A DNA stretch of 64,000 bases. Origin: a virus. This document shows positions 35,830-62,096 of this stretch, piece after piece. Both the position numbers and the translations under genes were made by a program. The notes below the pieces were generated by a model. That model was not told where the DNA came from. It searched no databases and worked only from the letters and a program-made list of their open reading frames with translations. Within the stretch, counting starts at the first letter, position 1. Each line of letters opens with the position of its first letter. The stretch lies in IMG/VR virus record IMGVR_UViG_3300025626_000004; one strand, written 5' to 3'.

Positions 35830-38367
35830 TTGGCGTTTTACACATCTGTCCAACGATATGGCAACCAACTTATGTACTGCGGTTATAATGACAGCGGTGT
35901 ACGTATTGAAAAGAAGATCAAATTTAAACCACAATTATTTTTAAAAAGCCAAAAACCTCAGACTGACTGGATTGCTATGGATGGCACGCGAGTCGAACCA
36001 ATCAACTTTGATGATATGCGCGAGGCTAAAGATTTCTTAGCTAAGTATAAAGATCTGAATGAGTTTAAAATATATGGCAATACCAATTATGCTGCACAAT
36101 ATATTGCTCAACAATTTCCAAATAAAATAGATTTTAAACCTAGTGATGTAAACGTAGTAAACTTTGATATAGAAGTTGCATCCGATCAAGGATTTCCAAA
36201 GCCGGATGAAGCTTTTCATCCTATCATTTCTATAGCACTTAAATCTTCTAAGTCTTCTGTCTATGAAGTGTGGGGTTTAGGTGAATATGATTATAGCAAA
36301 ACGCAACTTGATATGGGAACTGATCTAATTCAGTATCGCAAGTTTGATAGCGAAGCCGCACTACTTGCATCCTTCCACAAATATTGGTGTGAAAACAGAC
36401 CAGATATTTTAACTGGATGGAATATTCGTTACTTTGATATTCCGTATCTTATTAATCGTATTAAACGTGTTGGCACCGAAGCGGCCGCCAATAAGCTTTC
36501 TCCTTGGGGAATATTAAATGCATTTGATACTTCTCGCGGTATGAAAGGATCTCAGGTTCAACACGGCTATGAGATCCTTGGTATCCAACAAGCTGATTAT
36601 CTCGAGTTGTTCAAAAAGTTTGGATATTCATATGGTCCACAAGAATCATATAAGCTAGACCAAATTGCTTATACTGTTCTTAATGAGAAAAAACTATCCT
36701 ATGAAGAGCACGGCAGCTTATTTACTTTGTACGAGAAAGATCATCAGAAGTTTATTGATTATAATATTAAAGATGTTCAGCTTGTTCAGCGTATTGATGA
36801 CAAGATGGGTCTTATTGAATTATGCCAGACTATGGCATACAAAGCAGGTGTAAACATAAGCGATACATTTGGTACCACTGCCATATGGGATGCAATTATA
36901 TATCGTGAGCTAAACAAGAAACGTATTGCTCTGCTTCCTAATGAGACTAAGACAAAGGATCCATATCCAGGTGGTTATGTAAAAGAGCCACATGTTGGCA
37001 TGCATGATTGGGTAGTATCTTTCGATCTTAATTCACTATATCCTAATCTAATTGTACAATATAACATGTCACCCGAGACACTACTAAACGGAGCTTACCG
37101 GCATGGTGTTGATCATTATATGGACAATGATGCCGATACTGCTGGTAAAGATATTGCTATTGCAGCTAACGGATCTTCTTACCGTAAAGATTTTCAAGGC
37201 ATTATTCCTAGTATCATTGAGAGTTATTATGCCGAACGAAAAGAAATCAAAGGAGAGATGCTTGACGTAGAGCGTGCATACCAACTCAATAAAACTGAAG
37301 ACCTTGAGAAGCAAATTAACCAATTAAACAATCGCCAAATGGCAATTAAGATTTTGCTTAACTCTCTATATGGAGCCCTTGGTAACAGATGGTTCCGTTA
37401 TTTTGATATGCGCATGGCAGAAGGTATTACTTTGTCAGGACAGCTGGCAATCAAATGGTCTGAGCGTTGTGTTAATACTGAGATGAATAAGATTATGGGC
37501 ACCGAAAAGGTTGACTATGTTATCGCTATGGATACAGATTCACTTTATGTTAACTTCGGCCCGCTTGTAAAAAAATTCGCACCTAAGGATCCAGTTAAGT
37601 TTCTTGATAAGATATGCGGTGAGCATTTTCAAGACAACCTTAATGTCGCGTACGATAAACTTTCCACACGTATGAATGCATATAAAAATCGTATGGTCAT
37701 GGAACGTGAAGGCATCTCTGACAAAGGCATATGGACAGCAAAGAAAAGATATATTCTTAACGTGCATAATAACGAAGGTGTACAATATGCTGAGCCTAAG
37801 TTAAAGATTATGGGAATTGAAGCAATTAAGTCTTCAACTCCTGAGGTCGTACGTGAAAAGTTTCGTGAGGTATTTAAGATTATTATTCGAGGTGATGAGA
37901 AACTTACACAAGATTTTATTGCGGACTTCTATAACACATTTAGAACCTTATCACCAGAACAAATATCATTTCCTCGTGGAGTAGGGTTTGGTGATAGTAC
38001 TATGGGTAAATGGACTAACAAAGATAAAGGTAGTAAAAAGTCATATAAAGGTGGAACGCCTATTCACATCCGTGGGGCTTTGTTGTATAATGGCCTTATA
38101 GATAAATTAGGACTTGCACAAAAATATACTAAAATCAGTGATGGGGAGAAGGTTAAGTTTTGCTACTTACGAACTCCAAATACAATACATGAGAATGTTA
38201 TTGCCTTTCCTGATTACCTACCAGATGAACTGAATTTACATAAGTATATAAACTATGATATTCAGTTTGAAAAAACCTTTATCGATCCACTAAAATCTGT
38301 GATCGATGCTACAGGCTGGTTTATCAACTATGATAACAGCGGAACACTAGATGAATTTTTCGGATAA
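35830..38367 (+). CDS. gp43: family B DNA polymerase gp43
   Basis: FDIEV, YNIKDV, SFDLNSLYP, KILLNSLYGALGN, DTDS, KKRY, KSSTP. Confidence 0.98.
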   Translation: MAFYTSVQRYGNQLMYCGYNDSGVRIEKKIKFKPQLFLKSQKPQTDWIAMDGTRVEPINFDDMREAKDFLAKYKDLNEFKIYGNTNYAAQYIAQQFPNKIDFKPSDVNVVNFDIEVASDQGFPKPDEAFHPIISIALKSSKSSVYEVWGLGEYDYSKTQLDMGTDLIQYRKFDSEAALLASFHKYWCENRPDILTGWNIRYFDIPYLINRIKRVGTEAAANKLSPWGILNAFDTSRGMKGSQVQHGYEILGIQQADYLELFKKFGYSYGPQESYKLDQIAYTVLNEKKLSYEEHGSLFTLYEKDHQKFIDYNIKDVQLVQRIDDKMGLIELCQTMAYKAGVNISDTFGTTAIWDAIIYRELNKKRIALLPNETKTKDPYPGGYVKEPHVGMHDWVVSFDLNSLYPNLIVQYNMSPETLLNGAYRHGVDHYMDNDADTAGKDIAIAANGSSYRKDFQGIIPSIIESYYAERKEIKGEMLDVERAYQLNKTEDLEKQINQLNNRQMAIKILLNSLYGALGNRWFRYFDMRMAEGITLSGQLAIKWSERCVNTEMNKIMGTEKVDYVIAMDTDSLYVNFGPLVKKFAPKDPVKFLDKICGEHFQDNLNVAYDKLSTRMNAYKNRMVMEREGISDKGIWTAKKRYILNVHNNEGVQYAEPKLKIMGIEAIKSSTPEVVREKFREVFKIIIRGDEKLTQDFIADFYNTFRTLSPEQISFPRGVGFGDSTMGKWTNKDKGSKKSYKGGTPIHIRGALLYNGLIDKLGLAQKYTKISDGEKVKFCYLRTPNTIHENVIAFPDYLPDELNLHKYINYDIQFEKTFIDPLKSVIDATGWFINYDNSGTLDEFFG

Positions 38368-38377
38368 GGAATATATT

Positions 38378-38788
38378 ATGAGCGACTGGGCTAATGACAT
38401 CTACATGATGCACAACAAATTTGGTGTGCACAAGTGGTTTGAAGAAAATAAGCACGATAAAGAGCTTATGAAAAAGTATCTTGATTTTCGCATTGCTATG
38501 TGTCAAGAAGAACTTGATGAAACATTTATTGCGGCCAAGGAAGAAGACCCTGAAGAGATCGTTGATGGTCTTATTGACCTATGTGTTTTTGCAATTGGTA
38601 CATTAGATGTATTAGGTGTTGATGCCAATAAAGCATGGGATAAAGTCTACGAAGCTAATATGACTAAATCGCCAGGAATTAAAGAAGGCCGTCCAAACCC
38701 ATTTGGCCTACCAGATCTATTAAAGCCTGAGGGTTGGAAAGCCCCAACACATGAGGGAAATCATGGCAATATCCCTAACATTATTTAA
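38378..38788 (+). CDS. all-alpha NTP pyrophosphohydrolase (MazG/PRA-PH-like; possible dCTPase)
   Basis: EELDET, EEIVDGLIDL, ANMTK, DLLKPEGW. Confidence 0.75.
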   Translation: MSDWANDIYMMHNKFGVHKWFEENKHDKELMKKYLDFRIAMCQEELDETFIAAKEEDPEEIVDGLIDLCVFAIGTLDVLGVDANKAWDKVYEANMTKSPGIKEGRPNPFGLPDLLKPEGWKAPTHEGNHGNIPNII

Positions 38789-39692: not shown

Positions 39693-40172
39693 ATGATATA
39701 TAATGGAAAAGTTTCGGCAGAATTTATTCGGCAACGCGATGTTAAAGTTGAAAAGGACAAACGAGATTTTCACTCAGCAACTAGACAATGGGATTTTGAA
39801 TTCCCTGAATATCATCAAGCCTCTTTAAATAATGGCCATGTTCTATATGAAGGCTTTGAGTACGATACGACACATAACTTTTTTGGCAATTGCGATTTTA
39901 AGCATGTGAATGCAAAACAACAAATACATATTTCAAAATACATCTATGACAAATTATGTAAAGGCATCATAGAGCATATAGTTACTTGGAAATTTGTAGA
40001 CAGAAATTGGAAACAGCATCTAGCAGAAAATGATATTATAAAATACGATGTTTTAGATTACATTTCTACCGATGATATTTTACGTGCTATAAGCGACAAC
40101 ACTAGTATTTGTGGGTGTACAATTAACTTGGGTAATGGTATAATTGTTAAAACTCAAGAGGACAGCTTATGA
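39693..40172 (+). CDS. hypothetical protein, possible PD-(D/E)xK nuclease
   Basis: E..E ... YD ... DFK spacing. Confidence 0.4.
   Translation: MIYNGKVSAEFIRQRDVKVEKDKRDFHSATRQWDFEFPEYHQASLNNGHVLYEGFEYDTTHNFFGNCDFKHVNAKQQIHISKYIYDKLCKGIIEHIVTWKFVDRNWKQHLAENDIIKYDVLDYISTDDILRAISDNTSICGCTINLGNGIIVKTQEDSL
40116..40144 (+). promoter_or_regulatory. early promoter (TGTACA-N17-TATAAT)
   Basis: Consensus upstream of the 40169 operon. Confidence 0.7.
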
Positions 40173-40480
40173 AATATGATACTGGTAAACCACAATTAGA
40201 TCTAATCCCATCTGATCAACTCAATGCAATTGCAGAAGTACTTGGCTTTGGCGCTAATAAGTACGGTCGTAATAACTGGCGTGATGACGGTGCAACCACT
40301 AGCTGGTCTCGTACGTACTCATCTATACAACGCCACCTCACCTCTTGGAATAACAATGAAGATTTAGATCCTGAATCTGGAAATACTCATCTAGCACATG
40401 CATGTACCCAACTTATCATATTGATGCAACACATTGCTGATGGTCATAATAACATGGATGATAGATATAAAAATGAATGA
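40169..40480 (+). CDS. dATP/dGTP diphosphohydrolase domain protein (DUF5664-like)
   Basis: KYDTGKP..DLIP, FGANKYG.NNW, RHL, DPESG..HLAHA. Confidence 0.8.
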   Translation: MKYDTGKPQLDLIPSDQLNAIAEVLGFGANKYGRNNWRDDGATTSWSRTYSSIQRHLTSWNNNEDLDPESGNTHLAHACTQLIILMQHIADGHNNMDDRYKNE

Positions 40481-40664: not shown

Positions 40665-40918
40665 ATGATGGTAAAATGAGATTACACGATCTTGAGCCAA
40701 TGATAATGGATTGTTGGAGTGTTTGTAATGATTTGGAAACAGTATTTAAGCAAATAGGTGATGGTGAACGTGTACCGACAGAAGATGAGCTTATGAATGC
40801 TTTAATTGGTATACAGCAAGTATATCAATGGAAGTTTGAACAGTTGTTTTATAACTATGAAATGTTATTGCAATCACAACGCAATCGCAATGAGGAGAAC
40901 ACAAATGATAGCTGGTAA
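40661..40918 (+). CDS. hypothetical protein
   Basis: ATGA-coupled ORF. Confidence 0.7.
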
Positions 40919-41246
40919 AGTATGGGGACAAACAGAACTCTTAGAAGCAAACGGAGCTTTAGAGTTTCATCGTATTGAGATGAACGAAGGCGGCACATGC
41001 TCTAAGCATTTACACGAATTTAAATGGAACGGTTTTTACGTTGAATCGGGTATTATGAAAGTTCTTGTTTGGCAAAACTCTTATGATTTAGTCGATGAAA
41101 CTATTATTGGTCCAGGTCAATATCACAAAGTGCCACCAGGCGTATACCATCAATTTGAATGTATCCAATCGGGTGTTGCGTTTGAATTATATTGGGCCGA
41201 GTTTAACCACAACGATATTAAGCGTGAAACTGTAGGTCACGCGTGA
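40905..41246 (+). CDS. cupin protein (sugar isomerase-like)
   Basis: [24 protein letters not shown]; GAGGAG RBS. Confidence 0.75.
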
Positions 41247-41247
41247 A

Positions 41248-41586
41248 ATGAAGTACGTTATTGATATTGATGGTACTATATGTAAGGAAGTAATTATTCC
41301 CGATAGTGGTGGTAAGAAAGATTATGCCAACCACATTCCAATGCCCGAGCGTATTGCAAAAGTAAATGCATTGTATGATGCAGGACACACAATTAAGTAT
41401 ATGACAGCACGTGGTTGTGTAAGTGGTGTAGACTATTATAGACTAACACACAATCAACTAGTGGAATGGGGTGCGAAGCATCATGAACTAAGCGTTGGTG
41501 AAAAAGAAAACTACGACATCTGGATTGACGATAAAGCCTTTTGGAGTGAAAACTTTTTTCGTGAGACAGGAGAAAGCTATGAGTAG
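41248..41586 (+). CDS. small HAD-family phosphatase
   Basis: DIDGTIC, TARG, WIDDKA. Confidence 0.8.
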   Translation: MKYVIDIDGTICKEVIIPDSGGKKDYANHIPMPERIAKVNALYDAGHTIKYMTARGCVSGVDYYRLTHNQLVEWGAKHHELSVGEKENYDIWIDDKAFWSENFFRETGESYE

Positions 41587-41776
41587 CTGGCACTATCAAC
41601 TAATGCGCCACAAAGATGAAAGCCTTGCAGTACACGAATACTATCCGGGTGATAGGGCCGCGGGTTGGACCATAGAACCAATTAGTATTGTTGGGGATGA
41701 TGTTGAGGATGTTAAGAAGTCAATTCAAATGATTCTTGCCGACATTGATAAGCATGGAATTAAAAGTTATGAGTAA
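41579..41776 (+). CDS. hypothetical protein
   Basis: AGGAG RBS; coupled ORF. Confidence 0.65.
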   Translation: MSSWHYQLMRHKDESLAVHEYYPGDRAAGWTIEPISIVGDDVEDVKKSIQMILADIDKHGIKSYE

Positions 41777-41963
41777 AGTCTTAATGTGTGATCCACCCAG
41801 CGGATGGAAGTATGGATTTCCTAAACCGTTACCAGCGGACTTGCCTAAGAACGAAAGTATAATCCCTTGGTTGTTAGAGCAAGGCTATCCACAAGCAGAG
41901 GTTGATGCATGTGGTAAACATTTTTACTGTAGGTATTGGGAGACGGAGGTAGATGATGAGTAA
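41769..41963 (+). CDS. hypothetical protein (DPPSGWKYGFPK motif)
   Basis: Coupled ORF. Confidence 0.65.
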   Translation: MSKVLMCDPPSGWKYGFPKPLPADLPKNESIIPWLLEQGYPQAEVDACGKHFYCRYWETEVDDE

Positions 41964-42750
41964 ATTCATTGCAGCGATGGATCACAGTGGTGGTTCGACT
42001 GGCGGCGTATTAGAACGCTACGGACAAGAATATACCGAATCAAACAAGATGGACAAAGTTCATGCTATGCGTTTGCGTATGCTTGCTTGCCCAGCATTTA
42101 CATCTGACGCTATTTCAGGTGCTATCTTATATAAAGACACCGTTGAGCGTGGTATAGTTCCTATTCTACGAAAAAAAGGAATCACACCATATTTAAAGAT
42201 TGATAATGGATGTGAACAAGACGGCACGCTTAAACCCTTTGATGTTGATGGTATGTGCGATTATTCCAGGGCCCACAATATTGTTGGTACTAAGATGCGA
42301 TCGATTATTAAAAGCCAAGATGGACTTTGGCCTGTACTAGAACAGCAATTTAGATTTGCTGGTCATATTGCTAGCCGTGGATTGATTCCAATTGTTGAAC
42401 CTGAGATTCCTATCGACAGTCCTGAAAAAGAGGCATTAGAAAATAGTCTTGCCAAAGCTTTACCACACTATTTGAGCACATTCAAAAAGAAGCTAATTCT
42501 TAAATTGACATTGCCTGAAAGAGAAAACCTGTATGTAAATTTGTCTATGTATAAGTGTGTAGCTAAAACTGTAGGATTATCAGGTGGATATTCTACTGAT
42601 GTTGCTTGTTACAAATTAAAACGAAATACTTCTATGGGTGCCAGCTTCAGTAGGGCTTTGACCGAAGGTCTTACAATCAGTCAAAACGATAATCAGTTCA
42701 ATATTAAGTTGGCTTCTAATATTCAAAAAATTAAAGCAGCAGCGTCATGA
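41953..42750 (+). CDS. fructose-bisphosphate aldolase class I
   Basis: FIAAMDHSGGST, LKIDNG, GTKMRS, PIVEPE, LKLTLP, LSGGYS, SFSRAL. Confidence 0.88.
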   Translation: MMSKFIAAMDHSGGSTGGVLERYGQEYTESNKMDKVHAMRLRMLACPAFTSDAISGAILYKDTVERGIVPILRKKGITPYLKIDNGCEQDGTLKPFDVDGMCDYSRAHNIVGTKMRSIIKSQDGLWPVLEQQFRFAGHIASRGLIPIVEPEIPIDSPEKEALENSLAKALPHYLSTFKKKLILKLTLPERENLYVNLSMYKCVAKTVGLSGGYSTDVACYKLKRNTSMGASFSRALTEGLTISQNDNQFNIKLASNIQKIKAAAS

Positions 42751-43178
42751 TTATTGGTTTCACGGCATCGACATTTGACTTGCTTCATGCCGGACATATT
42801 TCTATGCTACGTGAAGCCAGGACACAGTGTGACTATCTAATATGTGGATTACAGGTTGATCCAAGTATTGATAGGAAAAAAAAGAACCCACCAGTCCAGT
42901 CTATAGTAGAGCGTCAGGCACAATTAAATGCTATTGAATATGTAGATGAAGTAATTATTTATTGTACAGAAGATGATTTACTTGATATAATCAATATGTA
43001 TCATATAGACGTACGCATTCTTGGCGTCGAATATAAAGATAAAGAATTTACTGGCCGTGATGAATGTCGCAAACGTGGCATTCAAATATATTTTAACAAG
43101 CGTGACCATAGATTTAGCACTAGCGATCTACGTAAACGTGTGATGGAGGCAGAACATGCACGAACTGACAGTAACTGA
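42747..43178 (+). CDS. cytidylyltransferase (TagD-like)
   Basis: FDLLHAGH, RDHRFSTSDLR. Confidence 0.85.
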   Translation: MIIGFTASTFDLLHAGHISMLREARTQCDYLICGLQVDPSIDRKKKNPPVQSIVERQAQLNAIEYVDEVIIYCTEDDLLDIINMYHIDVRILGVEYKDKEFTGRDECRKRGIQIYFNKRDHRFSTSDLRKRVMEAEHARTDSN

Positions 43179-43830
43179 TATTCGCAGCATTTTTATTAAT
43201 GAACTAGCTAATAAGCGTTTTACTATAGACAAGACCGGCGCTAAAACAATAGAAATGATTGGCGCTAGCTTTATTGCTACCGAGCCTTCTATCTTTGGCA
43301 CTGTTAATGAAGAATATGTACGTAAAGAAATTGATTGGTACTTAGGCCTATCCACTAATATCAATGACATATATGGCGACGTATTAGAGTCAGGTAAAGA
43401 ACCACCAAAGGCTTGGCAATACACAGCCAACGACCATGGTGAGATCAATTCTAATTATGGCTATCTCATATATGCTGACAAGTACTTCCGCCAATATGAA
43501 AGTGCGTTAATCGAACTTGAAAATAATCCAGATAGCCGTCGTGCTACTATGATCTACCAACGCCCATCAATCCAAGTTGAATTTCAAGAAAATGGTAAGA
43601 ATGATTTTATCTGTACCAATGCCGTAACTTATTATATTCGTGATGAGAAACTAAGTTGTGTTGTTCAGATGAGATCTAATGATGTTGTCTATGGATATAA
43701 GAATGATTATGCATGGCAGCAATTTGTTCTTAATACACTTGCACAAGATTTAAATGTTGATACTGGTGATATTATGTGGCAAGTACAAAATCTTCACGTG
43801 TATGAAAAGCACTTTGATCTTGTCAAGTAA
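43156..43830 (+). CDS. gp42: dCMP hydroxymethyltransferase (T4 gp42-like)
   Basis: DKTGAKTIE, INSNYG, SRRATMIY.RP, DFICTN, MRSNDVVYGYKNDYAWQ (Asp at the cytosine-specificity position), LHVYEKHF. Confidence 0.88.
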   Translation: MHELTVTDIRSIFINELANKRFTIDKTGAKTIEMIGASFIATEPSIFGTVNEEYVRKEIDWYLGLSTNINDIYGDVLESGKEPPKAWQYTANDHGEINSNYGYLIYADKYFRQYESALIELENNPDSRRATMIYQRPSIQVEFQENGKNDFICTNAVTYYIRDEKLSCVVQMRSNDVVYGYKNDYAWQQFVLNTLAQDLNVDTGDIMWQVQNLHVYEKHFDLVK

Positions 43831-44263
43831 ATGGGATAAGCGTTACTTAGAACTAGCAAGCGTAGTTGCGTCATGGTCTAAGGATCCATCGAGTAAAGTT
43901 GGTGCAGTAGCTGTTGGTGATAAGGGACAAGTGTTATCACAGGGATTTAACGGATTTGCTCGTGGCGTAGACGATACCGAAGAGCGATTAAATACTAGAG
44001 ATCAAAAATACAAGTTTATTGTCCACGCTGAAATGAATGCTATATTCAACGCCGCATTTAGTGGTGTATCTCTTGAAGGATCCGTGTTATATGTAACTGG
44101 ATTGCCATGCTGTTCTGAATGTGCAAAGGGTATTGTTCAGGTTGGTGTCAAGCGTGTAGTTATGGAACTTCCACAATTTAGCAATCCTAGATGGAAAGAT
44201 TCTTGGATGTTATCCGCACAAATGTTTGACGAAGCTGGCGTAAAATATGAGTTTGTGAAATGA
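43820..44263 (+). CDS. cd: dCMP deaminase (start codon uncertain)
   Basis: SKDPSSKVGA, GFNG, HAEMNAI, PCCSECAK. Confidence 0.9.
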   Translation: MSSKWDKRYLELASVVASWSKDPSSKVGAVAVGDKGQVLSQGFNGFARGVDDTEERLNTRDQKYKFIVHAEMNAIFNAAFSGVSLEGSVLYVTGLPCCSECAKGIVQVGVKRVVMELPQFSNPRWKDSWMLSAQMFDEAGVKYEFVK

Positions 44264-45216
44264 ATGTAATAACCAATCCAATATCAAACATACCAAAGAA
44301 TGAGAAGTCTCATGTTCATGGCTGGTCTCAATTATGGAGAGACCAGCTAAAAGCATCTATAGATCACAAGTGCAGTCCTCATATAAGGAAGTCTGACATC
44401 GTGTACATAGAACATGGTGCAAACTTTGGTGGAACACTAAATCTTTTCGGAGGAGCAAACAAAGAGGTCTTTAATAAGATTAATCTTGTAATGTCATGTC
44501 CGAATATTGTATCTTTGGATTGGGATATGCCAGACTATGGATCTATGCTAAAGAAAAGGCTTGAGGCTCCTACTACATACGAAGGTATTACAGAAACATG
44601 GTGCGATGCCGTATCACATCGGATAAAGAGTATCCCGTCACTGAAACAAAAGGATCTCAAGACTGACTCTATTATCTTTGGAGATTCACATACGATAGCG
44701 TTTAGTGGCGCTGGAGACCGCGTGTATCGCACTGATGGTAAGACCCTATATGGAACTGTACATAAAGGGATACAAAAAGAAATTACAGAGTCTGTTGGTA
44801 AGATTACATTTTGTATGGGATCTATTGATATCAGACATCATATTCTCCGTCATCCCGAAGTATCCTTAAAATATACAATTAAAGAGTATGTAAGACAAGC
44901 CAACGAATTAGCAGATGATGTATGGTTCACTGCTCCTGTTCCGGTAGAATTTGAAGGTCGACGTATTCCTAAGTCCGGCTTTTATAAGAAAACTCCATTT
45001 TATGGATCCTGGAAAGACAGGTGGAATCTTACAAACGAGTTCATCGATATGCTACATACTGAATCAAAGGGCAAGGTTATTATGCCACCAAAGGAATGGT
45101 ATACTATGGATGCCGAGAAATATGCAACAACTTACATGGAGCATGGTTCTAGTTTCCACATAGCTCCACCATACTATAGGCGTAATGACTGGGGAGTATC
45201 TCCCTTTGGCGCATAA
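44260..45216 (+). CDS. hypothetical protein with SGNH/GDSL-like C-terminal domain
   Basis: FGDSHT (block I), MGSIDIRHH (block III-like), SSFHI (block V His). Confidence 0.55.
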   Translation: MNVITNPISNIPKNEKSHVHGWSQLWRDQLKASIDHKCSPHIRKSDIVYIEHGANFGGTLNLFGGANKEVFNKINLVMSCPNIVSLDWDMPDYGSMLKKRLEAPTTYEGITETWCDAVSHRIKSIPSLKQKDLKTDSIIFGDSHTIAFSGAGDRVYRTDGKTLYGTVHKGIQKEITESVGKITFCMGSIDIRHHILRHPEVSLKYTIKEYVRQANELADDVWFTAPVPVEFEGRRIPKSGFYKKTPFYGSWKDRWNLTNEFIDMLHTESKGKVIMPPKEWYTMDAEKYATTYMEHGSSFHIAPPYYRRNDWGVSPFGA

Positions 45217-46090
45217 TAATCACGTAGTAGACGGAATAAACCGTGACATTAATCCATTTTATGGAGATCCAAAGGAATACTATTTAGACCTTGCGAAGAA
45301 TTGGGAGGATCCATATGGAGAACCCGTTATTACTGAACATGATGGCGTTCGTGTTATTCGTGATGATTTTTTGGTTGGCTCTAAAGTTCGTGGTGGTGAT
45401 TGTCTTATTAGTAGTCTACCCGATCACATTGATACTATCGCTTATGTTCAACCTCGTAGCGGCCTTGCTGGTGTTAGTATTCTTGATGTGGCTAAACGGC
45501 ACGACAAAGACGTCATGCTTTTTATGCCGTCTTCAAAACGAATCTCAGATCATCAAGCCTGTTGTATTGAGCGAGGAGCTAAAACTAGCTTTCATCGAAT
45601 AGCTGCAATGCCAAATTTAAACCTTATTGCGAAGAAGTGGTCAGACGAAAGAAAAAATGTTTTCTTCATTCCTCTAGGTCTTAAGCATGAAATGGTAACA
45701 GCTGGAATAGTAAAGGTAGCTTCAAATATAACGGCACCAGAAGAAGTATACATTGCCACTTCCACGGGTGTGCTCACACGGGGGCTTCAAATAGCTTGGC
45801 CTAATACTAAATTCACTTCTGTTTGTGTATCTCGCAATATGAAAGCCGGTGAACTTGGAATAGCCGAAGCCGTGTCAGAACCATTAGGATTTCATTCGGC
45901 CGAAAAGAAAGAGAACCTGCCACCATTCCCTACAATAGATACTTATGACGGTAAAGCTTGGAAATATATTCCTAAGAATACTGGTAGAGATATTCTGTTT
46001 TGGAATGTAGGTAAAGAACCAGTACTACAAAATCTTAATTTGCCAGAAACTATTGATTCGTATAGAGATTGGGAAAAAAATGTGGCTTAA
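45206..46090 (+). CDS. PLP-dependent fold-type II enzyme of the phage DNA-hypermodification type
   Basis: IRDD..VGSKVRG (PLP Lys), STGVLTRGL loop, YDGKAW, FWNVG; TTG start after GGGGAG. Confidence 0.75.
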   Translation: MAHNNHVVDGINRDINPFYGDPKEYYLDLAKNWEDPYGEPVITEHDGVRVIRDDFLVGSKVRGGDCLISSLPDHIDTIAYVQPRSGLAGVSILDVAKRHDKDVMLFMPSSKRISDHQACCIERGAKTSFHRIAAMPNLNLIAKKWSDERKNVFFIPLGLKHEMVTAGIVKVASNITAPEEVYIATSTGVLTRGLQIAWPNTKFTSVCVSRNMKAGELGIAEAVSEPLGFHSAEKKENLPPFPTIDTYDGKAWKYIPKNTGRDILFWNVGKEPVLQNLNLPETIDSYRDWEKNVA

Positions 46091-47096
46091 CGAAGAAGCA
46101 ATTGATGTTCTCGTAAACTATTACTATCCAAAAGCAGGATGGCTACAAGACAATGTAAACTGGGGACCGCTAGATTATGAAGGACCGGAAGCAAATAAAA
46201 TCGTTAACGACCCTCTCTTACAAAAGATTGACATCTATGATTGTAAAACAAGAAACGCTGCAGGCTTCTCAAATGTATTACAAGATCTGAGGTTCGGATC
46301 TAAAACTCCTAAGTGGAGATGGCAGAAAGAAGATAGACGTAAGATCTCGGCATCAAACGATGATATTAGTTGGTCTATTGAAACGTGGTTATATACATTT
46401 CTTTGCCATCGTATTACTGGGTCAGGAGCTTCGTTTGAAAATGATCATGGCTATCGTAATAATGTAATTCAACATTGGGGTAAGCATAGAGACATTAAAG
46501 ATATGGCAGAGGATTTGGTGGAGACTAAAGCCTCTGGAAAACCGTTGTTTACGTCTATCGGCAATCAACCTCCAGCTCCTAAGAAGGGAGTTAGTAATGT
46601 TGACTTTATGGTAAATGAATTGCCAGAAGTTATTAATAGATTTACAGATTTTCTTCTCTTAAAAAAAAGAGGTCATAAAGAAATTGTAGATCACCTAAAT
46701 GAGCATAATAAAAAAGCAGGTCATCGTAAATTTAATTTTCAGTACGCTGCTTTCTCTATGGATTGCTCTGACTATTTTCCTGAACACGCTGATGTGGATT
46801 CTCATACATATTTAGGAAACAACGCGGTACGATGCATGAAGAAATTATCTAAAGGCTGGAAAGATGACGACTTCATGGATCTACTGAGAGAACGAACCAA
46901 CGGTAAGCCAAAAGATCTTGAAGATGTTATGTGTGATTTTGTGAGATTTGGGCAAAACTATGTTCCACGAGGTAATGGGACGTTTGATCATATTCCATCA
47001 ACACTATCAAATGCATCTGGATGGACGTCTGGGTGGGAACAAAGGCAAGGTAAACCTCCGGTAATAGGTTTACAACTTGACCAATTTATGGTATAA
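46080..47096 (+). CDS. 5hmU-DNA-kinase-helical / aGPT-Pplase-like DNA modification protein
   Basis: DPLLQK..IY....R, FLCHRI and LEDVMCDFVRF recall DPIL..Y.F.N..R, LFR.F and IE..LCE..KY of that family; recalled by eye only. Confidence 0.5.
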   Translation: MWLNEEAIDVLVNYYYPKAGWLQDNVNWGPLDYEGPEANKIVNDPLLQKIDIYDCKTRNAAGFSNVLQDLRFGSKTPKWRWQKEDRRKISASNDDISWSIETWLYTFLCHRITGSGASFENDHGYRNNVIQHWGKHRDIKDMAEDLVETKASGKPLFTSIGNQPPAPKKGVSNVDFMVNELPEVINRFTDFLLLKKRGHKEIVDHLNEHNKKAGHRKFNFQYAAFSMDCSDYFPEHADVDSHTYLGNNAVRCMKKLSKGWKDDDFMDLLRERTNGKPKDLEDVMCDFVRFGQNYVPRGNGTFDHIPSTLSNASGWTSGWEQRQGKPPVIGLQLDQFMV

Positions 47097-47097
47097 T
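47069..47097 (+). promoter_or_regulatory. early promoter (TTTACA-N17-TATAAT); near-leaderless for ugd
   Basis: Consensus ends 7 nt before the ATG at 47104. Confidence 0.7.
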
Positions 47098-47103
47098 AAA
47101 ATC

Positions 47104-47955
47104 ATGTTAAAAATTACAATCATTGGCCACGGTTTTGTAGGCAAAGCAGTTGACTATGCATTCCAGGATGGCGTAGAAAAACAAATCATAGATCCTAAGA
47201 TAGGAGTGCATTTAAAAGACGTTTCGTTAAATGCAAATCTCACATTCGTATGTCTTCCAACCCCTATGGGTAAAGATGGTAAATGCGACACTTCAATATT
47301 GAAGTCCGTTTTAGATGAAATAAAACATCGCATGAGTGGCATAATTGTAATTAAATCTACCGTTCCGCCAGACGAGGTTAAAGCACTTGTATCTGGGTCT
47401 TCTTCTAAGAGGATAGTTTATAATCCAGAATTTTTAACAGAGCGGAATGCAAACGAAGATATCGTTAATCCATTCATACAGATTCTAGGTGGGGATAAGA
47501 CCACCACAGAAACGTTAGAGCGCTACTACAAAGAATATAGTATATGCAAACCATGCCCCACATATCACATGTCAGCGACGGATGCTAGTTTTGTAAAGTA
47601 CGGAATAAATGCCTTCTTGGCAGCTAAGCTTACTTTCTTTAATGAATTCTATGATGCAGTAAAAGAGTTTGGCGGAAACTATGGCAAGATTGCCAATGCG
47701 ATTGGAACAGATCCTAGAATTGGTGATTCCCATACTCGTGTTCCTGGTTTTGATGGCAAACGTGGTTTTGGTGGTGCATGCTTCCCTAAAGATGTGTCGG
47801 CCTTTATTAACTTTACAACTCAGGCCGGTATGTTGGAATATGTTATGAAACGCAATAACGAATACAGATCTGTGTACGATAAAGATGATCGTGAAAAAGA
47901 ACAAAATATCCAGTATAATATGACTGGCGAAATAGCACATGTGAATGAACGATGA
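47104..47955 (+). CDS. ugd: UDP-glucose/GDP-mannose 6-dehydrogenase (short form)
   Basis: GHGFVG, CLPTP, IKSTVPP, YNPEFL, KYGINAFLA, GFGGACFPKD. Confidence 0.85.
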   Translation: MLKITIIGHGFVGKAVDYAFQDGVEKQIIDPKIGVHLKDVSLNANLTFVCLPTPMGKDGKCDTSILKSVLDEIKHRMSGIIVIKSTVPPDEVKALVSGSSSKRIVYNPEFLTERNANEDIVNPFIQILGGDKTTTETLERYYKEYSICKPCPTYHMSATDASFVKYGINAFLAAKLTFFNEFYDAVKEFGGNYGKIANAIGTDPRIGDSHTRVPGFDGKRGFGGACFPKDVSAFINFTTQAGMLEYVMKRNNEYRSVYDKDDREKEQNIQYNMTGEIAHVNER

Positions 47956-48872
47956 AAGTATTCATAACAGGAATTGCCGGATTTATCGGATATCACTTAG
48001 CTAGAGATCTACAGGCTCTAGGCCATGATGTATCTGGAATGGATGATTATAACGATTACTACGATCCTGAACTGAAAGCTGATAGAACAAATATTTTGAA
48101 TCAACGTCAGATTAGAGTTGATGTACAAGATGTAAAGTATATTGGTCTTATAAAAAATGCTCATAGTGCTGATCTTATAGTACACTTGGCCGCTTATGCC
48201 GGAGTAAGATATTCTTTAGACAATCCACAGTTGTACATTGACAATAATGTTATCGCAACCGCAGAAGTGATTAAGCTGGCCGAAGAATCTGATACGCCAG
48301 TTGTCTATGCTTCGTCTTCTTCTGTATATGGCGGACAAAACTTTACTGAGGATGCCCCGTTCCAACATTTAAGTAATCCATACGCTTGGAGCAAGTATGT
48401 TAATGAGTGTCAGTTTAAACATAGCAAATTGACTTCATCCACGGGATTTAGATTTTTCACTGTGTACGGACCTTATGGTAGACCTGACATGGCACTATAT
48501 ACATTTGTAGATAATATTATGAATGGTAAACCTATTACAGTTAATAATCATGGAGACATGACGCGAGATTTTACTTATGTACAAGACATCATAAATGGTA
48601 TACTATTGCTAATAGATGAGACGATAGTTAATAATGTTCACGATATATACAATATTGGATCCGGCAAGTCTACACAACTTTTACGGTTTATTGAACTTAT
48701 TGAAGACAACTTAGGAATTAAAGCTGAAAAGATTATGGCACCTATGCATCCGGCTGATGTGCAAAATACTTTAGCTGATATTACTAAGATAAAAACCCTA
48801 GGCTATAAGCCTAAAACCACTGTTGAAGCTGGGATAAGTGAATTTGTATCCTGGTATAAATCATATTATTGA
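47952..48872 (+). CDS. NAD-dependent epimerase (UDP-glucuronate 4-epimerase-like)
   Basis: TGIAGFIG, HLAAYAGVRYS, YASSSSVYG, RFFTVYGPYGRPDMA, RDFTYV. Confidence 0.88.
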   Translation: MKVFITGIAGFIGYHLARDLQALGHDVSGMDDYNDYYDPELKADRTNILNQRQIRVDVQDVKYIGLIKNAHSADLIVHLAAYAGVRYSLDNPQLYIDNNVIATAEVIKLAEESDTPVVYASSSSVYGGQNFTEDAPFQHLSNPYAWSKYVNECQFKHSKLTSSTGFRFFTVYGPYGRPDMALYTFVDNIMNGKPITVNNHGDMTRDFTYVQDIINGILLLIDETIVNNVHDIYNIGSGKSTQLLRFIELIEDNLGIKAEKIMAPMHPADVQNTLADITKIKTLGYKPKTTVEAGISEFVSWYKSYY

Positions 48873-48882
48873 GGAGACACGC

Positions 48883-50238: not shown

Positions 50239-50676
50239 ATGAAAATTTTAATTATGGGATTACCAGGTTCTGGCAAAACTTGGTTGGCAGAAAGGTTGCA
50301 AAAAAGATTAGATTGCGCATGGTTCAATGCCGATAAAGTTCGTGAGATGGCTAATGACTGGGAGTTTTCCGAAGCTGCCAGATATCGCCAAGCACATCGA
50401 ATGGCATCTATTGCTAACCATGAAAAGTATCACGATCGTACGGTTATATGTGATTTTGTCTGTCCGACTGAAGTTACTAGAGCTATTTTTGATGCTGACT
50501 ATACTGTATGGATGGATACAATCAAAGAAGGTCGATTCAATGATACTAACAAGATGTTTCAGAGTCCACCTCAGAAGGATGTTAACTACCACGTTTCTAA
50601 GTGGTTTGATGACACGGATGAAAAACTAGTTGATGCTATTCATAGGCATATTGACATAAAAAACAAAGGAGAATAA
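50239..50676 (+). CDS. adenylyl-sulfate kinase (CysC)-like P-loop kinase
   Basis: MGLPGSGKT, NADKVR, DWEFS..AR, DFVCP. Confidence 0.7.
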   Translation: MKILIMGLPGSGKTWLAERLQKRLDCAWFNADKVREMANDWEFSEAARYRQAHRMASIANHEKYHDRTVICDFVCPTEVTRAIFDADYTVWMDTIKEGRFNDTNKMFQSPPQKDVNYHVSKWFDDTDEKLVDAIHRHIDIKNKGE

Positions 50677-50679
50677 AGC

Positions 50680-51090
50680 ATGTTCGATTGGAAAGCGCCT
50701 ACAACTCAAATGTTAGGACGTTGGCAGCCTTGGCATAAAGGCCATACAGAATTGTTTCGTAAGGCACATAACCTAACTGGACAAGTTGCTATTATGATCC
50801 GTGATGTAGGTGGAATTGTTGGTCAGGATGCTGGTGGAGGTAGGACAAACGAGCAAGTTGATAATCCATTTGATTTTACTTTTGTCTCTCAACAAATAAT
50901 TACTGCCTTGTCAAATCAAGGGTATACAGTTAATATAGATTATGTTATAATGGAAGTACCGAACATTGTAGATATTAGTTATGGACGTGGTGTAGGTTAT
51001 ACATTCACAGAGCACGATCTTGGCGAAGATATTCATAATATTTCTGCCACTAAGATTCGTGCTAAAATGAGAGATGAGGGACTTCTTTGA
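50680..51090 (+). CDS. HxGH nucleotidyltransferase
   Basis: GRWQPWHKGH, YGRGVGY, ISATKIR. Confidence 0.75.
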   Translation: MFDWKAPTTQMLGRWQPWHKGHTELFRKAHNLTGQVAIMIRDVGGIVGQDAGGGRTNEQVDNPFDFTFVSQQIITALSNQGYTVNIDYVIMEVPNIVDISYGRGVGYTFTEHDLGEDIHNISATKIRAKMRDEGLL

Positions 51091-52476: not shown

Positions 52477-53121
52477 ATGAAGGTTAGGTTAATTGGTTAC
52501 ACTCAATCTACAGAACACCACATCGGCCTCGATACCACTGAAGACATCATCGCGTATTGCGCCCGTGTCTCCAATCCATCGGCCCAAGTTAACTCCGAAA
52601 CAGCCCCCAAATTACTTGCCTACCTTAAACGGCACAAGCACTGGTCCCCATTTGAAATGTGCTCAGCCACGCTTGAAGTCGAAACAACAAGAGACATTGC
52701 CCGACAATTCCTCAGGCATCGCTCCTTTTCCTTTCAAGAGTTTTCTCAGCGTTATGCTAATCCTAATGATATGGCTAATACTTTCGTACTGAGGGAAGCT
52801 AGGCTTCAAGACAATGCTAATAGGCAGAATTCAATTAAAACGGACGATGAATTACTTAAAAAAACTTGGATTGCTAAGCAAGAGCAAATTATTCATGAAG
52901 CAAAATTGGCTTACCAGTGGGCTATTGATAATGGTATTGCTAAAGAACAGGCTCGTGTTGTACTGCCTGAAGGTAATACCATATCTCGACTATATGTTAA
53001 TGGCACTATTCGTAGCTGGATTCATTATCTTGAGCTTCGTCAGGCTGATGGGACTCAGTTAGAACATATTCTGTTGGCACATGAGATTGCTAAAGTTATT
53101 AGTAAAATATTTCCAGTTTAG
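52477..53121 (+). CDS. thyX: flavin-dependent thymidylate synthase
   Basis: HWSPFE, RQFLRHRSFSFQEFSQRY, KEQARVVLP, RSWIHY. Confidence 0.95.
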   Translation: MKVRLIGYTQSTEHHIGLDTTEDIIAYCARVSNPSAQVNSETAPKLLAYLKRHKHWSPFEMCSATLEVETTRDIARQFLRHRSFSFQEFSQRYANPNDMANTFVLREARLQDNANRQNSIKTDDELLKKTWIAKQEQIIHEAKLAYQWAIDNGIAKEQARVVLPEGNTISRLYVNGTIRSWIHYLELRQADGTQLEHILLAHEIAKVISKIFPV

Positions 53122-61928: not shown

Positions 61929-62096
61929 GTGGATAATTTTAATGGTAAAGTGGTAAGGCAAGAAGTCATTACTTACTACATTGCTGCTGATGATATTATG
62001 ACCAAACATGTAAAAACAACAGACCATTGTGGCGATGGCAGTGTTATTGAAGGTGTGTCGACTATACCAATTGTGGATAGGGGAAAGTTTAAATGA
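61929..62096 (+). CDS. 55-aa hypothetical protein, absent from the ORF track
   Basis: GTG start after AAGGAA; ATGA overlap with kdsA. Confidence 0.5.
   Translation: MDNFNGKVVRQEVITYYIAADDIMTKHVKTTDHCGDGSVIEGVSTIPIVDRGKFK

What the first reader, a model, noticed from the sequence alone, without database searches (positions are those of the whole stretch)
42747..48872. Candidate new DNA hypermodification pathway: hmC synthesis joined to thymidine-hypermodification-type enzymes
Seen: overlapping genes for a cytidylyltransferase, a gp42-type dCMP hydroxymethylase, dCMP deaminase, an SGNH-like protein, a fold-II PLP enzyme and a helical protein resembling the 5hmU-DNA-kinase/aGPT-Pplase family. 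The hydroxymethylase has MRSND..GYKNDY, with Asp at the position that confers dCMP specificity in T4 gp42. A UDP-sugar dehydrogenase and epimerase follow. ThyX (52477) supplies dTMP separately, and no T4 alpha/beta glucosyltransferase is recognisable in the window. Known: in ViI/M6/phiW-14-type phages, kinase, amino-acid transferase and (in ViI/M6) PLP enzymes decorate 5hmU made by a dUMP hydroxymethylase, not 5hmC. Inference: this phage either builds an amino-acid-derived (possibly acylated or glycosylated) hypermodified cytosine, or reaches 5hmU by hydroxymethylating dCMP and then deaminating it. I know of no characterised example of either route.
Basis: partly seen in the sequence, partly recalled or inferred. 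Interest (0 to 1): 0.88.

Follow-up and report, generated by a model that had tools for sequence, protein, structure and literature searches.

The report
Kinase-less hydroxymethylcytosine hypermodification cassette
An uncultured marine T4-like phage makes T4's hydroxymethylcytosine, but where T4 has its sugar-adding gene it has three enzymes related to those that attach and trim amino acids on thymine in other phages, so its DNA probably carries a decorated cytosine that no one has described chemically.

Summary
The region 43156-47096 encodes five proteins:
- a gp42-type dCMP hydroxymethylase, 51% identical to Tequatrovirus gp42, with ThyA D169 kept and N177 changed to Asp;
- a dCMP deaminase;
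- p318, a two-domain protein whose C-terminal half is an SGNH fold with an invariant GDSH;
- a PLP enzyme in the same PHROG as the validated DNA decarboxylase M6 gp52;
- p338, a helical protein whose model is closest to amino acid:DNA transferases.

All 26 related IMG/VR loci with enough flank carry hydroxymethylase, p318, PLP enzyme and p338 together. They sit between gp43 and uvsX, where T4 has beta-gt.

New evidence here:
- Seven cluster representatives are natural p318-p338 fusions.
- The trio also occurs in a T7-like podovirus beside another Asp-type TS homologue.

No 5-hmdU DNA kinase was found in five long related contigs.

Most likely this is a post-replicative, amino-acid-derived modification of 5hmC that starts without a kinase. 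The chemistry is unproven, and p338 is linked to transferases by predicted structure only.

The scan has found this cassette before on other DNA. I found no paper describing it.

The parts
38351..38788 (+). MazG/PRA-PH-type NTP pyrophosphohydrolase, a candidate dCTPase that would keep dCTP out of the DNA
   Evidence: PF01503 2.3e-11 and phrog_671 1.1e-23. It follows gp43 in 40 related loci. PF01503 co-occurs with TS homologues on modified-cytosine contigs (PMC8670742). The substrate is inferred.
40169..40480 (+). dNTP diphosphohydrolase N-terminal-like protein (PF18909), a second candidate for clearing canonical dNTPs
   Evidence: PF18909 7.1e-28. In 9 of 11 other loci its homologue ends within about 60 nt of the hydroxymethylase gene. 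Here about 2.6 kb of sugar-type genes lie between them.
40806..43178 (+). Lineage-specific sugar-type insert: cupin (40806-41246), HAD/phosphoheptose-isomerase-like (41248-41586), class I aldolase-like (41953-42750), RfaE-II-like nucleotidyltransferase (42747-43178)
   Evidence: Among 80 loci the NT is in 15, the cupin in 14, the aldolase in 1 and the HAD-like gene in none. The insert is accessory, and no link to DNA modification is shown.
43156..43830 (+). gp42-type dCMP hydroxymethylase
   Evidence: PF00303 5.3e-19 and phrog_160 5e-50. It is 50-53% identical to gp42 of T4-like phages. The catalytic Cys aligns, D169 is kept, and N177 and L143 are both Asp as in a Tequatrovirus gp42. The motif RSND....ND is present in 56 of 57 loci.
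43754..44263 (+). dCMP deaminase
   Evidence: PF00383 1.9e-21 and phrog_174 2.4e-44. It is adjacent to the hydroxymethylase in the main clade but lies after gp41 in the clade with gene order HM-p338-PLP-p318. It is not part of the invariant core.
44260..45216 (+). p318: N-terminal alpha/beta domain with a Gly-rich NLFGG loop, plus a C-terminal SGNH-fold domain (GDSH, GxID.RHH, ME..S.H). Proposed acyl or ester transferase that works together with p338.
   Evidence: phrog_13881 3.4e-95. AF2 pLDDT 89.6. SGNH/GDSL structures match at Z 8.4-11.9 over residues 133-313, including the O-acetyltransferases PatB and OatA at about Z 10. S143, H144, D190, R192, H194, E294 and H300 are invariant across 14 divergent homologues. 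It is fused to p338 in seven cluster representatives.
45185..46090 (+). Fold-type II PLP enzyme of the M6 gp52 / ViI gp226 family of DNA-adduct decarboxylases
   Evidence: phrog_7093 1e-33. M6 gp52 is itself phrog_7093 at 2.2e-159. hhalign against M6 gp52 gives probability 92.5%, E 4.9e-7 over 216 columns, and window K67 (GSKVRG) aligns with gp52 K36, the predicted Schiff-base lysine (PMC8989533). The Atlas neighbours are named Trp-synthase-beta-like, or carry PALP. The Lys motif is conserved in 67 of 74 loci, and the rest are partial hits.
46080..47096 (+). p338: helical protein of the HhH-GPD-like superfamily, nearest to amino acid:DNA transferases. Proposed base-flipping transferase acting on 5hmC in DNA.
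   Evidence: AF2 pLDDT 87. In BFVD the first 12 hits are all AADT, aGPT-Pplase1 or HMUDK_hel proteins, or unnamed phage proteins. The top hit has E 2.8e-14 and TM 0.81. In the PDB the best hit is 8z2m, PaMx11 gp46 glycinyltransferase, at Z 8.6, tied with AGOG and DUF2419. The family has 278 clusters at 90% identity and 139 at 50%.
47104..47955 (+). Compact nucleotide-sugar dehydrogenase-like protein with GHGFVG and GFGGACFPKD motifs and no C-terminal UDP-binding domain
   Evidence: PF03721 and PF00984 at about 1e-16, TIGR03026 at 3.1e-41 covering model positions 76-295 of 413. Sequence read. Present in 24 of 80 loci. Accessory.
47952..48872 (+). NAD-dependent SDR sugar epimerase/dehydratase
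   Evidence: PF01370 9.2e-44 and phrog_540 6.3e-77. Present in 15 of 80 loci. Accessory.
50239..51090 (+). Two adjacent same-frame ORFs that match the two halves of phrog_10255 'kinase': a P-loop N-terminal part and a nucleotidyltransferase-like C-terminal part
   Evidence: Found only in the 10-11 closest loci, as two ORFs there too. It cannot be the general activating kinase of the cassette.
52477..53121 (+). ThyX, a separate dTMP supply
   Evidence: PF02511 5.9e-41. Present in 29 loci.

Best explanation
This is a cassette for hypermodifying cytosine in the phage's own DNA.

Before replication, the gp42-type enzyme makes 5-hydroxymethyl-dCMP. One of the two conserved NTP pyrophosphohydrolases probably removes dCTP. 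The deaminase and ThyX feed dTMP, so thymine stays canonical.

After 5hmC is incorporated, a three-protein module takes the place of T4's beta-glucosyltransferase. The helical protein p338 binds DNA and flips out 5hmC, as its structural relatives do. The SGNH-fold protein p318 works in complex with p338. It stands in for the P-loop DNA kinase of the thymidine pathways, most likely by acylating the 5-CH2OH group so that it can be displaced, or by delivering an acyl or aminoacyl group. An amino acid is installed on the base. The PLP enzyme, a homologue of M6 gp52 and ViI gp226, then decarboxylates it, leaving an amine-bearing side chain on cytosine.

Shown by computation: the family assignments, the conservation of the four genes together, their position in the beta-gt slot, and the p318-p338 fusions.

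Inferred: the DNA substrate, the order of steps, the acyl activation, the identity of the amino acid and the final structure.

The flanking sugar-nucleotide genes are lineage-specific and may or may not extend the modification.
For: - Hydroxymethylase: 50-53% identical to gp42, with the Tequatrovirus gp42 pattern at ThyA positions 143, 146, 169 and 177. It lacks the D169N signature of 5hoC synthases.
- Synteny: a Tequatrovirus has pol-imm-42-beta-gt-uvsX-40-41. Here and in 80 loci the order is pol...HM-(dCD)-p318-PLP-p338-uvsX...41. HM, p318 and PLP are all present in 26 of 26 loci with enough flank.
- PLP enzyme: same PHROG as M6 gp52, which was shown to decarboxylate an amino-acid adduct on DNA. 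hhalign probability is 92.5% and the Schiff-base Lys aligns.
- p338: the nearest structures are AADT, aGPT-Pplase and HMUDK_hel proteins and PaMx11 gp46.
- p318-p338 fusions exist in seven cluster representatives. L091 has a fusion followed by the PLP gene.
- The same trio lies in a T7-like podovirus, about 5 kb upstream of a TMP-kinase-like gene and a TS homologue with D169 kept and Asp at position 177.
- p318 keeps an invariant Ser-His set in an SGNH fold, a fold shared with the O-acetyltransferases PatB and OatA.
- No HMUDK was found in five related contigs that are 38-86% complete.
- ThyX is present, so T is made normally.
Against: - No chemistry was measured.
- p338 has no Pfam ADDT or HMUDK_hel match. 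Only 1 of 72 family representatives gives a weak ADDT hit. hhalign against M6 gp51 is null. The PDB Z of 8.6 is tied with DNA glycosylases and is low for a helical protein.
- The role of p318 as activator is only an analogy. No acyl donor is identified and its N-domain has no assigned fold.
- Fold-II PLP enzymes catalyse many reactions besides decarboxylation.
- A kinase could lie in unsampled parts of these incomplete genomes.
- The window also holds a NodU/CmcH carbamoyltransferase, a family with a known 5hmC-modifying member.
Confidence: 0.55

Rival explanations
1. The 5hmU route. The deaminase converts hm-dCMP to hm-dUMP, 5hmU enters DNA, and the module then performs a thymidine-type hypermodification.
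For: The deaminase gene overlaps the hydroxymethylase gene in the main clade. Every characterised AADT and gp52-type PLP enzyme acts on 5hmU-derived bases (PMC8989533).
Against: In the HM-p338-PLP-p318 clade the deaminase lies after gp41. The T7-like loci with the trio show no deaminase in the ORFs examined. Phages that carbamoylate 5hmC also pair a TS homologue with a dCMP deaminase. ThyX shows the phage invests in ordinary dTMP. A dUMP-specific (Asn) hydroxymethylase would be the simpler route, yet Asp is kept in 56 of 57 loci. No HMUDK was found.
Confidence: 0.1
2. The module does modify 5hmC, but the product is not an amino-acid adduct. Examples are an O-acyl-hmC made by p318 with p338 as its DNA-binding partner, or a product of PLP-dependent elimination or replacement chemistry.
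For: p318 has the fold and catalytic Ser-His of SGNH esterases and O-acyltransferases. p318-p338 fusions occur, and one 225-kb phage contig has the fusion with no PLP gene within 14.7 kb. Aeromonas phages with gene 42 and no glucosyltransferase carry a p318 homologue but no detectable PLP or p338 homologue.
Against: The PLP gene is present in all 26 T4-like loci with enough flank. Its closest characterised relative is a decarboxylase of amino-acid adducts on DNA.
Confidence: 0.18
3. The hmC is glycosylated or carbamoylated. The flanking sugar-nucleotide genes (NT, dehydrogenase, epimerase, kinase pair), or the carbamoyltransferase at 1382-3241, make the real modification, and the trio is auxiliary.
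For: Sugar-nucleotide genes flank the core on both sides in this lineage. An Aeromonas p318 homologue lies two genes from a UDP-galactopyranose mutase gene. A NodU/CmcH carbamoyltransferase is present, and a member of that family makes 5-carbamoyloxymethyl-C.
Against: No glycosyltransferase was recognised in the cluster, and the T4-like beta-gt is absent. The sugar genes are in only 15-24 of 80 loci, whereas the trio is universal. The carbamoyltransferase lies about 40 kb away among heptose-pathway genes, the context that the MetaGPA authors found on unmodified contigs.
Confidence: 0.1
4. This is not DNA modification. The genes are auxiliary metabolic genes acting on free nucleotides, amino acids or cell-surface sugars that happen to sit in a variable slot.
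For: The window is rich in sugar and tailoring genes. No biochemical data exist.
Against: The genes sit strictly together with a dCMP hydroxymethylase across pol identities of 48-71% and in an unrelated podovirus. p338 has a base-flipping fold. PLP homologues lie within, or are annotated as, 'DNA modification methylase' genes, one of them next to ParB genes. There is no late promoter in the region, and the genes lie in the replication block.
Confidence: 0.05

Closest known systems
Thymidine hypermodification pathways of phages M6, ViI, PaMx11, PhiW-14 and SP10 (PMC8989533; PMC11472151)
   Same: In both, a TS-homologue hydroxymethylase supplies a 5-hydroxymethylpyrimidine. A helical transferase of the AADT/aGPT-Pplase structural class is present. 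There is also a fold-II PLP enzyme of the same PHROG as M6 gp52. The genes are clustered in the replication region.
   Different: The hydroxymethylase here is dCMP-specific (Asp), not dUMP-specific (Asn). No P-loop 5-HMUDK was found. An SGNH-fold protein, fused to the helical protein in some phages, stands where the kinase would be. p338 does not match Pfam ADDT. No radical SAM, FAD or acetyltransferase tailoring genes are in the core.
T4 hmC pathway (gp42, gp56, gp1, alpha- and beta-glucosyltransferase)
   Same: The hydroxymethylase is orthologous at 50-53% identity. The chromosomal slot is the same, between gp43 and uvsX. The logic is also shared: replace C before replication, then decorate afterwards.
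   Different: No glucosyltransferase is present. The p318, PLP and p338 genes occupy the beta-gt position.
5hmC carbamoyltransferase system (MetaGPA, PMC8670742)
   Same: It is a non-sugar decoration of phage 5hmC. It shares the co-occurring set of TS homologue, PRA-PH pyrophosphohydrolase and dCMP deaminase.
   Different: That system uses a single NodU/CmcH enzyme. Here there is a three-protein module of unrelated folds.
RB69/DLP3 arabinosyl-5-hydroxycytosine pathway (PMC13326640)
   Same: It is found in T4-like phages, with a TS homologue next to the modification genes and its own sugar-nucleotide synthesis genes.
   Different: Those TS homologues carry D169N and make 5hoC. This one keeps D169 and is only about 28% identical to RB69 gp48. 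GT-B arabinosyltransferases are absent here.

Membership tests
T4 gp42-type dCMP hydroxymethylase | Thymidylate-synthase fold with the catalytic Cys (T4 C148 / ThyA C146) | tested here: met
   PF00303 5.3e-19. The Cys is invariant in alignment A4.
T4 gp42-type dCMP hydroxymethylase | Asp at the ThyA N177 position (T4 D179), which selects dCMP | tested here: met
   GYKND aligns with GFRND of a Tequatrovirus gp42 (phage ES19) and with LPFN of ThyA. Conserved in 56 of 57 loci.
T4 gp42-type dCMP hydroxymethylase | ThyA D169 kept (D169N marks 5hoC synthases), and Asp at the L143 position as in gp42 | tested here: met
   RSND and DFICTN. The criterion comes from PMC13326640.
T4 gp42-type dCMP hydroxymethylase | Converts dCMP to 5-hm-dCMP | not testable with these tools
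   Needs an enzyme assay.
Amino acid:DNA transferase (Pfam ADDT PF18724 / aGPT-Pplase) | Match to the family HMM | tested here: not met
   No Pfam hit at E up to 10. PF18724 is absent from the cassette in five related contigs. Only 1 of 72 family representatives hits, at E 1e-3. M6 gp51 as a control scores 1.4e-46.
Amino acid:DNA transferase (Pfam ADDT PF18724 / aGPT-Pplase) | Two-lobed helical fold of PaMx11 gp46 (PUGT) | tested here: met
   8z2m is the best PDB representative, with Z 8.6 and 206 residues aligned, though it is tied with AGOG and DUF2419. BFVD AADT and Pplase1 proteins match at E 3.4e-4 to 1.3e-3.
Amino acid:DNA transferase (Pfam ADDT PF18724 / aGPT-Pplase) | Partnered with a 5-hmdU DNA kinase that makes the phosphorylated substrate | tested here: not met
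   PF18748, PF18723 and M6 gp54 find nothing in contigs that are 38-86% complete or in the window. The genomes are incomplete, so absence is not proven.
Amino acid:DNA transferase (Pfam ADDT PF18724 / aGPT-Pplase) | Transfers a free amino acid to an activated 5-methylene of a pyrimidine in DNA | not testable with these tools
   Needs in vitro reconstitution.
M6 gp52 / ViI gp226 PLP-dependent DNA-adduct decarboxylases (phrog_7093) | Match to the family profile that contains M6 gp52 | tested here: met
   Window protein 1e-33. M6 gp52 2.2e-159, full length. hhalign probability 92.5%.
M6 gp52 / ViI gp226 PLP-dependent DNA-adduct decarboxylases (phrog_7093) | Schiff-base lysine (M6 K36) | tested here: met
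   K67 in GSKVRG aligns with SK36IRG (K36 from PMC8989533). Conserved in the loci.
M6 gp52 / ViI gp226 PLP-dependent DNA-adduct decarboxylases (phrog_7093) | Decarboxylates an amino acid attached to a base in DNA | not testable with these tools
   Needs an assay.
SGNH/GDSL hydrolase-acyltransferase superfamily | Flavodoxin-like SGNH fold | tested here: met
   Z 8.4-11.9 to about 50 SGNH structures over residues 133-313. Foldseek probability 1.00.
SGNH/GDSL hydrolase-acyltransferase superfamily | Block I GDS nucleophile and block V His | tested here: met
   GDSH (S143) and H300 are invariant in 14 divergent homologues.
SGNH/GDSL hydrolase-acyltransferase superfamily | Block III GxND oxyanion Asn and block V Asp (DxxH) | tested here: inconclusive
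   The sequences read GSID or GNID, and SxxH with an invariant E294. The register could not be checked on coordinates.
T4 alpha/beta-glucosyltransferases | Homologue present in the window | tested here: not met
   tblastn with a Tequatrovirus glucosyltransferase gives a best E of 0.53. Alpha-gt was not tested.

The most novel reading that the evidence does not exclude
DNA hypermodification here starts by a chemistry not yet seen on DNA. An SGNH-fold enzyme, docked on or fused to a base-flipping helical protein, acylates the hydroxymethyl group of 5hmC, or transfers an aminoacyl group to it, with no ATP-dependent DNA kinase involved. This yields a new amine-bearing cytosine that is widespread in marine T4-like and T7-like phages. 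In this particular lineage, a dehydrogenase that lacks its UDP-binding domain, an epimerase and a nucleotidyltransferase process the adduct further.
Probability: 0.3. Interest if true: 0.9.

Novelty: new variant of a known kind. Interest (0 to 1): 0.8.

Why it matters
All amino-acid-type DNA hypermodifications characterised so far sit on thymine and depend on a DNA kinase. All known decorations of gp42-derived 5hmC are sugars or a carbamoyl group.

A conserved cassette that puts AADT-like and gp52-like enzymes on a cytosine-specific hydroxymethylase would add a new class of modified cytosine. It has an esterase-fold partner in place of the kinase, so it probably also brings a new way of activating the base.

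The family is large: 158 IMG/VR contigs and 139 clusters at 50% identity. Such DNA could therefore be common in ocean viromes. That would affect restriction and CRISPR evasion, and it could bias library preparation and sequencing of marine viromes.

The enzymes would also be candidate tools for labelling 5hmC.

Tried and rejected
Readings rejected:
- An RB69-type 5-hydroxycytosine synthase. D169 is kept and identity to RB69 gp48 is only about 28%.
- A second AADT paralogue in related contig G001. The weak PF18724 hit lies in the gp44 clamp-loader gene.
- The P-loop kinase pair at 50239-51090 as the missing DNA kinase. It is found only in the 10-11 closest loci.

Tests that gave nothing:
- A sequence-level link from p338 to AADT: Pfam and hhalign against M6 gp51 with a narrow and a broad profile.
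- A link from the C-terminus of Aeromonas 44RR ORF233c to p338. HMM and hhalign are null. Only a sub-threshold HMUDK_hel hit at E 9e-4 remains.
- The p318 N-domain against a T4-like glucosyltransferase by hhalign. The Atlas returned no usable hit for residues 1-132, and a search for shorter proteins returned only fragments.
- A PDB sequence search for p338 and for the PLP profile.
- Promoter and terminator scans, which are at chance level. There is no TATAAATA between about 33 and 60 kb on the + strand.
- Megablast of the region against GenBank phages, and tblastn of p338. No cultured phage has it.

Tools that were not available:
- No whole genome is held for the window.

Because of this, the neighbourhoods of most fusion proteins and any read-level signal of modification could not be examined.

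Full report
**What is there.** The window is part of an uncultured marine T4-like phage. Its gp43 polymerase is at most 52% identical to any GenBank phage, and cyanomyoviruses come next at about 45%. The region has no nucleotide match in GenBank phages.

Between gp43 (35830-38367) and uvsX (48838-49926) lies a run of same-strand, mostly overlapping genes. In order they are:
- a MazG/PRA-PH pyrophosphohydrolase and a primase-like protein;
- a PF18909 dNTP diphosphohydrolase-like protein;
- a cupin, a HAD-like protein, a class I aldolase-like protein and an RfaE-II-like nucleotidyltransferase;
- a TS-fold enzyme and a dCMP deaminase;
- three proteins without Pfam hits (318, 301 and 338 aa);
- a nucleotide-sugar dehydrogenase-like protein and an SDR epimerase.

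ThyX lies at 52477-53121.

**The hydroxymethylase.** It is 50-53% identical to gp42 of Tequatrovirus and Klebsiella T4-like phages, and 42.5% identical to the annotated gp42 of Aeromonas phage 31. I aligned it with E. coli ThyA, a Tequatrovirus gp42 (phage ES19), phage 31 gp42 and RB69 gp48. It keeps the catalytic Cys and ThyA D169, and it has Asp at positions 177 and 143, exactly as the gp42 sequences do. RB69 gp48 carries D169N, which Lee et al. 2026 showed is diagnostic for 5-hydroxycytosine synthases. The enzyme is therefore a dCMP hydroxymethylase by every sequence criterion available. The motif is kept in 56 of 57 related loci.

**The three unknowns.**

*p338 (46080-47096).* The start is the ATG at 46080, as in its homologues.
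- Its AF2 model has pLDDT 87 and is all-helical.
- Against viral models, the first three hits are family members at 27-29% identity. One of them is named 'Amino acid:DNA transferase domain-containing' (E 2.8e-14, TM 0.81).
- The next nine hits are AADT, aGPT-Pplase1 or 5-hmdU DNA kinase helical-domain proteins or unnamed phage proteins.
- Against 48,161 PDB representatives, the best chain is 8z2m, the PaMx11 gp46 5-PmdU glycinyltransferase, at Z 8.6. AGOG, DUF2419 and other HhH-GPD glycosylases follow closely. The authors of that structure also found it closest to glycosylases, at Z about 6.
- There is no sequence-level support. I therefore call p338 a new family within that structural class, not a member of Pfam ADDT.

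*The 301-aa protein.* It matches phrog_7093 at 1e-33.
- M6 gp52 is the PLP enzyme shown to decarboxylate C-alpha-glycinylthymidine in DNA. It is a full-length member of that PHROG, at 2.2e-159.
- A profile of the window's family aligns to gp52 with 92.5% probability. Window K67 falls on gp52 K36, the predicted Schiff-base lysine, and the two share a C-terminal PFP..YD.K.WK...FWN.G motif.
- Other homologues lie within, or are annotated as, 'DNA modification methylase' genes, one of them next to ParB genes.

*p318.* Its model has pLDDT 89.6.
- Residues 133-313 match SGNH/GDSL esterases and the O-acetyltransferases PatB and OatA at Z 8.4-11.9.
- GDSH, GxID.RHH and a C-terminal His are invariant across 14 very divergent homologues.
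- The N-terminal 130 residues form an alpha/beta domain with a Gly-rich loop. I could not assign its fold.

**Conservation.** A scan of IMG/VR found 158 contigs encoding p338 relatives, and 80 were fetched.
- Every one of the 26 loci with at least 4.5 kb on both sides of p338 also has the hydroxymethylase, p318 and the PLP enzyme.
- One clade has the order HM-dCD-p318-PLP-p338. Another has HM-p338-PLP-p318, with the deaminase moved to after gp41.
- In a Tequatrovirus the order is pol-imm-42-glucosyltransferase-uvsX-40-41, so the trio sits in the beta-gt slot.
- The nucleotidyltransferase, dehydrogenase, epimerase and aldolase occur in 15, 24, 15 and 1 of 80 loci.
- In other loci the PF18909 gene abuts the hydroxymethylase gene. 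The 40.8-43.2 kb sugar genes of this window therefore look like an insertion.

**New links.** A profile search of 1.84 billion cluster representatives found 139 clusters in the p338 family.
- Seven of them, 639-790 aa long, carry a complete p318 domain at the N-terminus (E 1e-37 to 1e-66) and a complete p338 domain at the C-terminus.
- Related loci show a fusion followed by the PLP gene. They also show a T7-like podovirus (RNA polymerase, T7-type SSB, primase-helicase) with p318, p338 and PLP genes in a row. About 5 kb downstream it has a TMP-kinase-like gene and a TS homologue reading RSSD....YD, again with D169 kept and Asp at position 177.
- The trio is thus a mobile functional unit tied to cytosine-type TS homologues, and p318 and p338 probably act as one enzyme.

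**The missing kinase.** Pfam HMUDK_HMUD1, Pfam HMUDK_hel and M6 gp54 find nothing in five related contigs of 69-152 kb that are 38-86% complete, nor in the window. The only P-loop kinase nearby, at 50239-51090, is confined to the closest clade. This does not prove absence, but it fits p318 replacing the kinase.

**Mechanism.** I commit to the following: 5hmC replaces C before replication. After replication, p338 flips out 5hmC and p318 activates or loads the 5-CH2OH group through an acyl-enzyme. An amino acid is attached, and the gp52-like enzyme decarboxylates it to an amine. Only the family assignments and the genomic linkage are shown. The chemistry is inference. My confidence is about 0.55. 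The rivals are listed separately.

**Comparison and novelty.** I found no paper describing AADT-type or gp52-type enzymes on gp42-derived 5hmC, or an SGNH partner. Burke et al. 2021 only speculated that HMUDK-like kinases phosphorylate TET-made 5hmC.

Earlier notes of this scan report the same cassette on other genomes and read it the same way. I saw those notes after forming my own reading.

Petrov et al. 2010 record that Aeromonas phages 44RR, 31 and 25 have genes 42 and 56 but no glucosyltransferase. 44RR and 31 are among 43 GenBank phage records, 38 of them Aeromonas phages, with a p318 homologue, so they offer a cultured entry point.

Noticed in passing
window 1382-3241 (+), with 466-1440 upstream: A full NodU/CmcH-type O-carbamoyltransferase (PDB 7xb6 at 6e-53, TobZ at 1e-41). 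A member of this family carbamoylates 5hmC in phage DNA (PMC8670742). Here it lies among heptose-pathway genes, the kind of context that paper found on unmodified contigs. The diagnostic residues (TobZ W408, G421, R423) were not checked.
   Followed up: partly
window 40169-40480 (+): A 103-aa protein matching PF18909 (dATP/dGTP diphosphohydrolase N-terminal, 7e-28). Its homologue sits directly upstream of the hydroxymethylase gene in most of the 11 other loci that have it, so it may be the pathway's dCTPase rather than a purine dNTPase.
   Followed up: partly
window 50239-50676 and 50680-51090 (+): Two ORFs in the same frame, separated only by TAA and one codon. Together they cover the N- and C-halves of phrog_10255 'kinase'. 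They are separate ORFs in the 10-11 closest relatives too, and in at least one of those they are in different frames. This looks like a split bifunctional kinase/nucleotidyltransferase.
   Followed up: partly
L001 5995-8382 (Aeromonas phage 44RR2.8t ORF233c) and L089 2767-6041 (Aes012): Cultured Aeromonas T4-like phages carry p318 homologues. The 44RR group has gene 42 and no glucosyltransferase. In 44RR the homologue is fused to a 460-aa C-terminal region with a sub-threshold HMUDK_hel hit (E 9e-4). In Aes012 it is two genes downstream of a UDP-galactopyranose mutase gene, with a 358-aa unknown in between.
   Followed up: partly
L086 (Erythrobacter phage vB_EliS_R6L gp1) and L087 5986-6696 (Microcystis phage Mae-JY30): Homologues of the PLP enzyme (29-31% identical) lie inside a long 'DNA modification methylase' gene, or directly after two ParB/sulfiredoxin genes. 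This points to other PLP-dependent DNA modification systems.
   Followed up: no
window 47104-47955 (+): The nucleotide-sugar dehydrogenase-like protein keeps the Rossmann motif and the catalytic Cys motif but lacks the whole C-terminal UDP-binding domain. Its substrate may therefore not be a UDP-sugar.
   Followed up: no
window 62093-63470 (+): A DAHP_synth_1 / KDO8P-synthase-like gene (1.2e-52), followed by a weak radical SAM match. These are further sugar-type genes outside the finding.
   Followed up: no
L021 6748-7212: In one related locus a small UDG-superfamily protein (PF03167, E 1.6e-4) lies between the hydroxymethylase gene and the trio, followed by a 329-aa protein with no family hit.
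   Followed up: no
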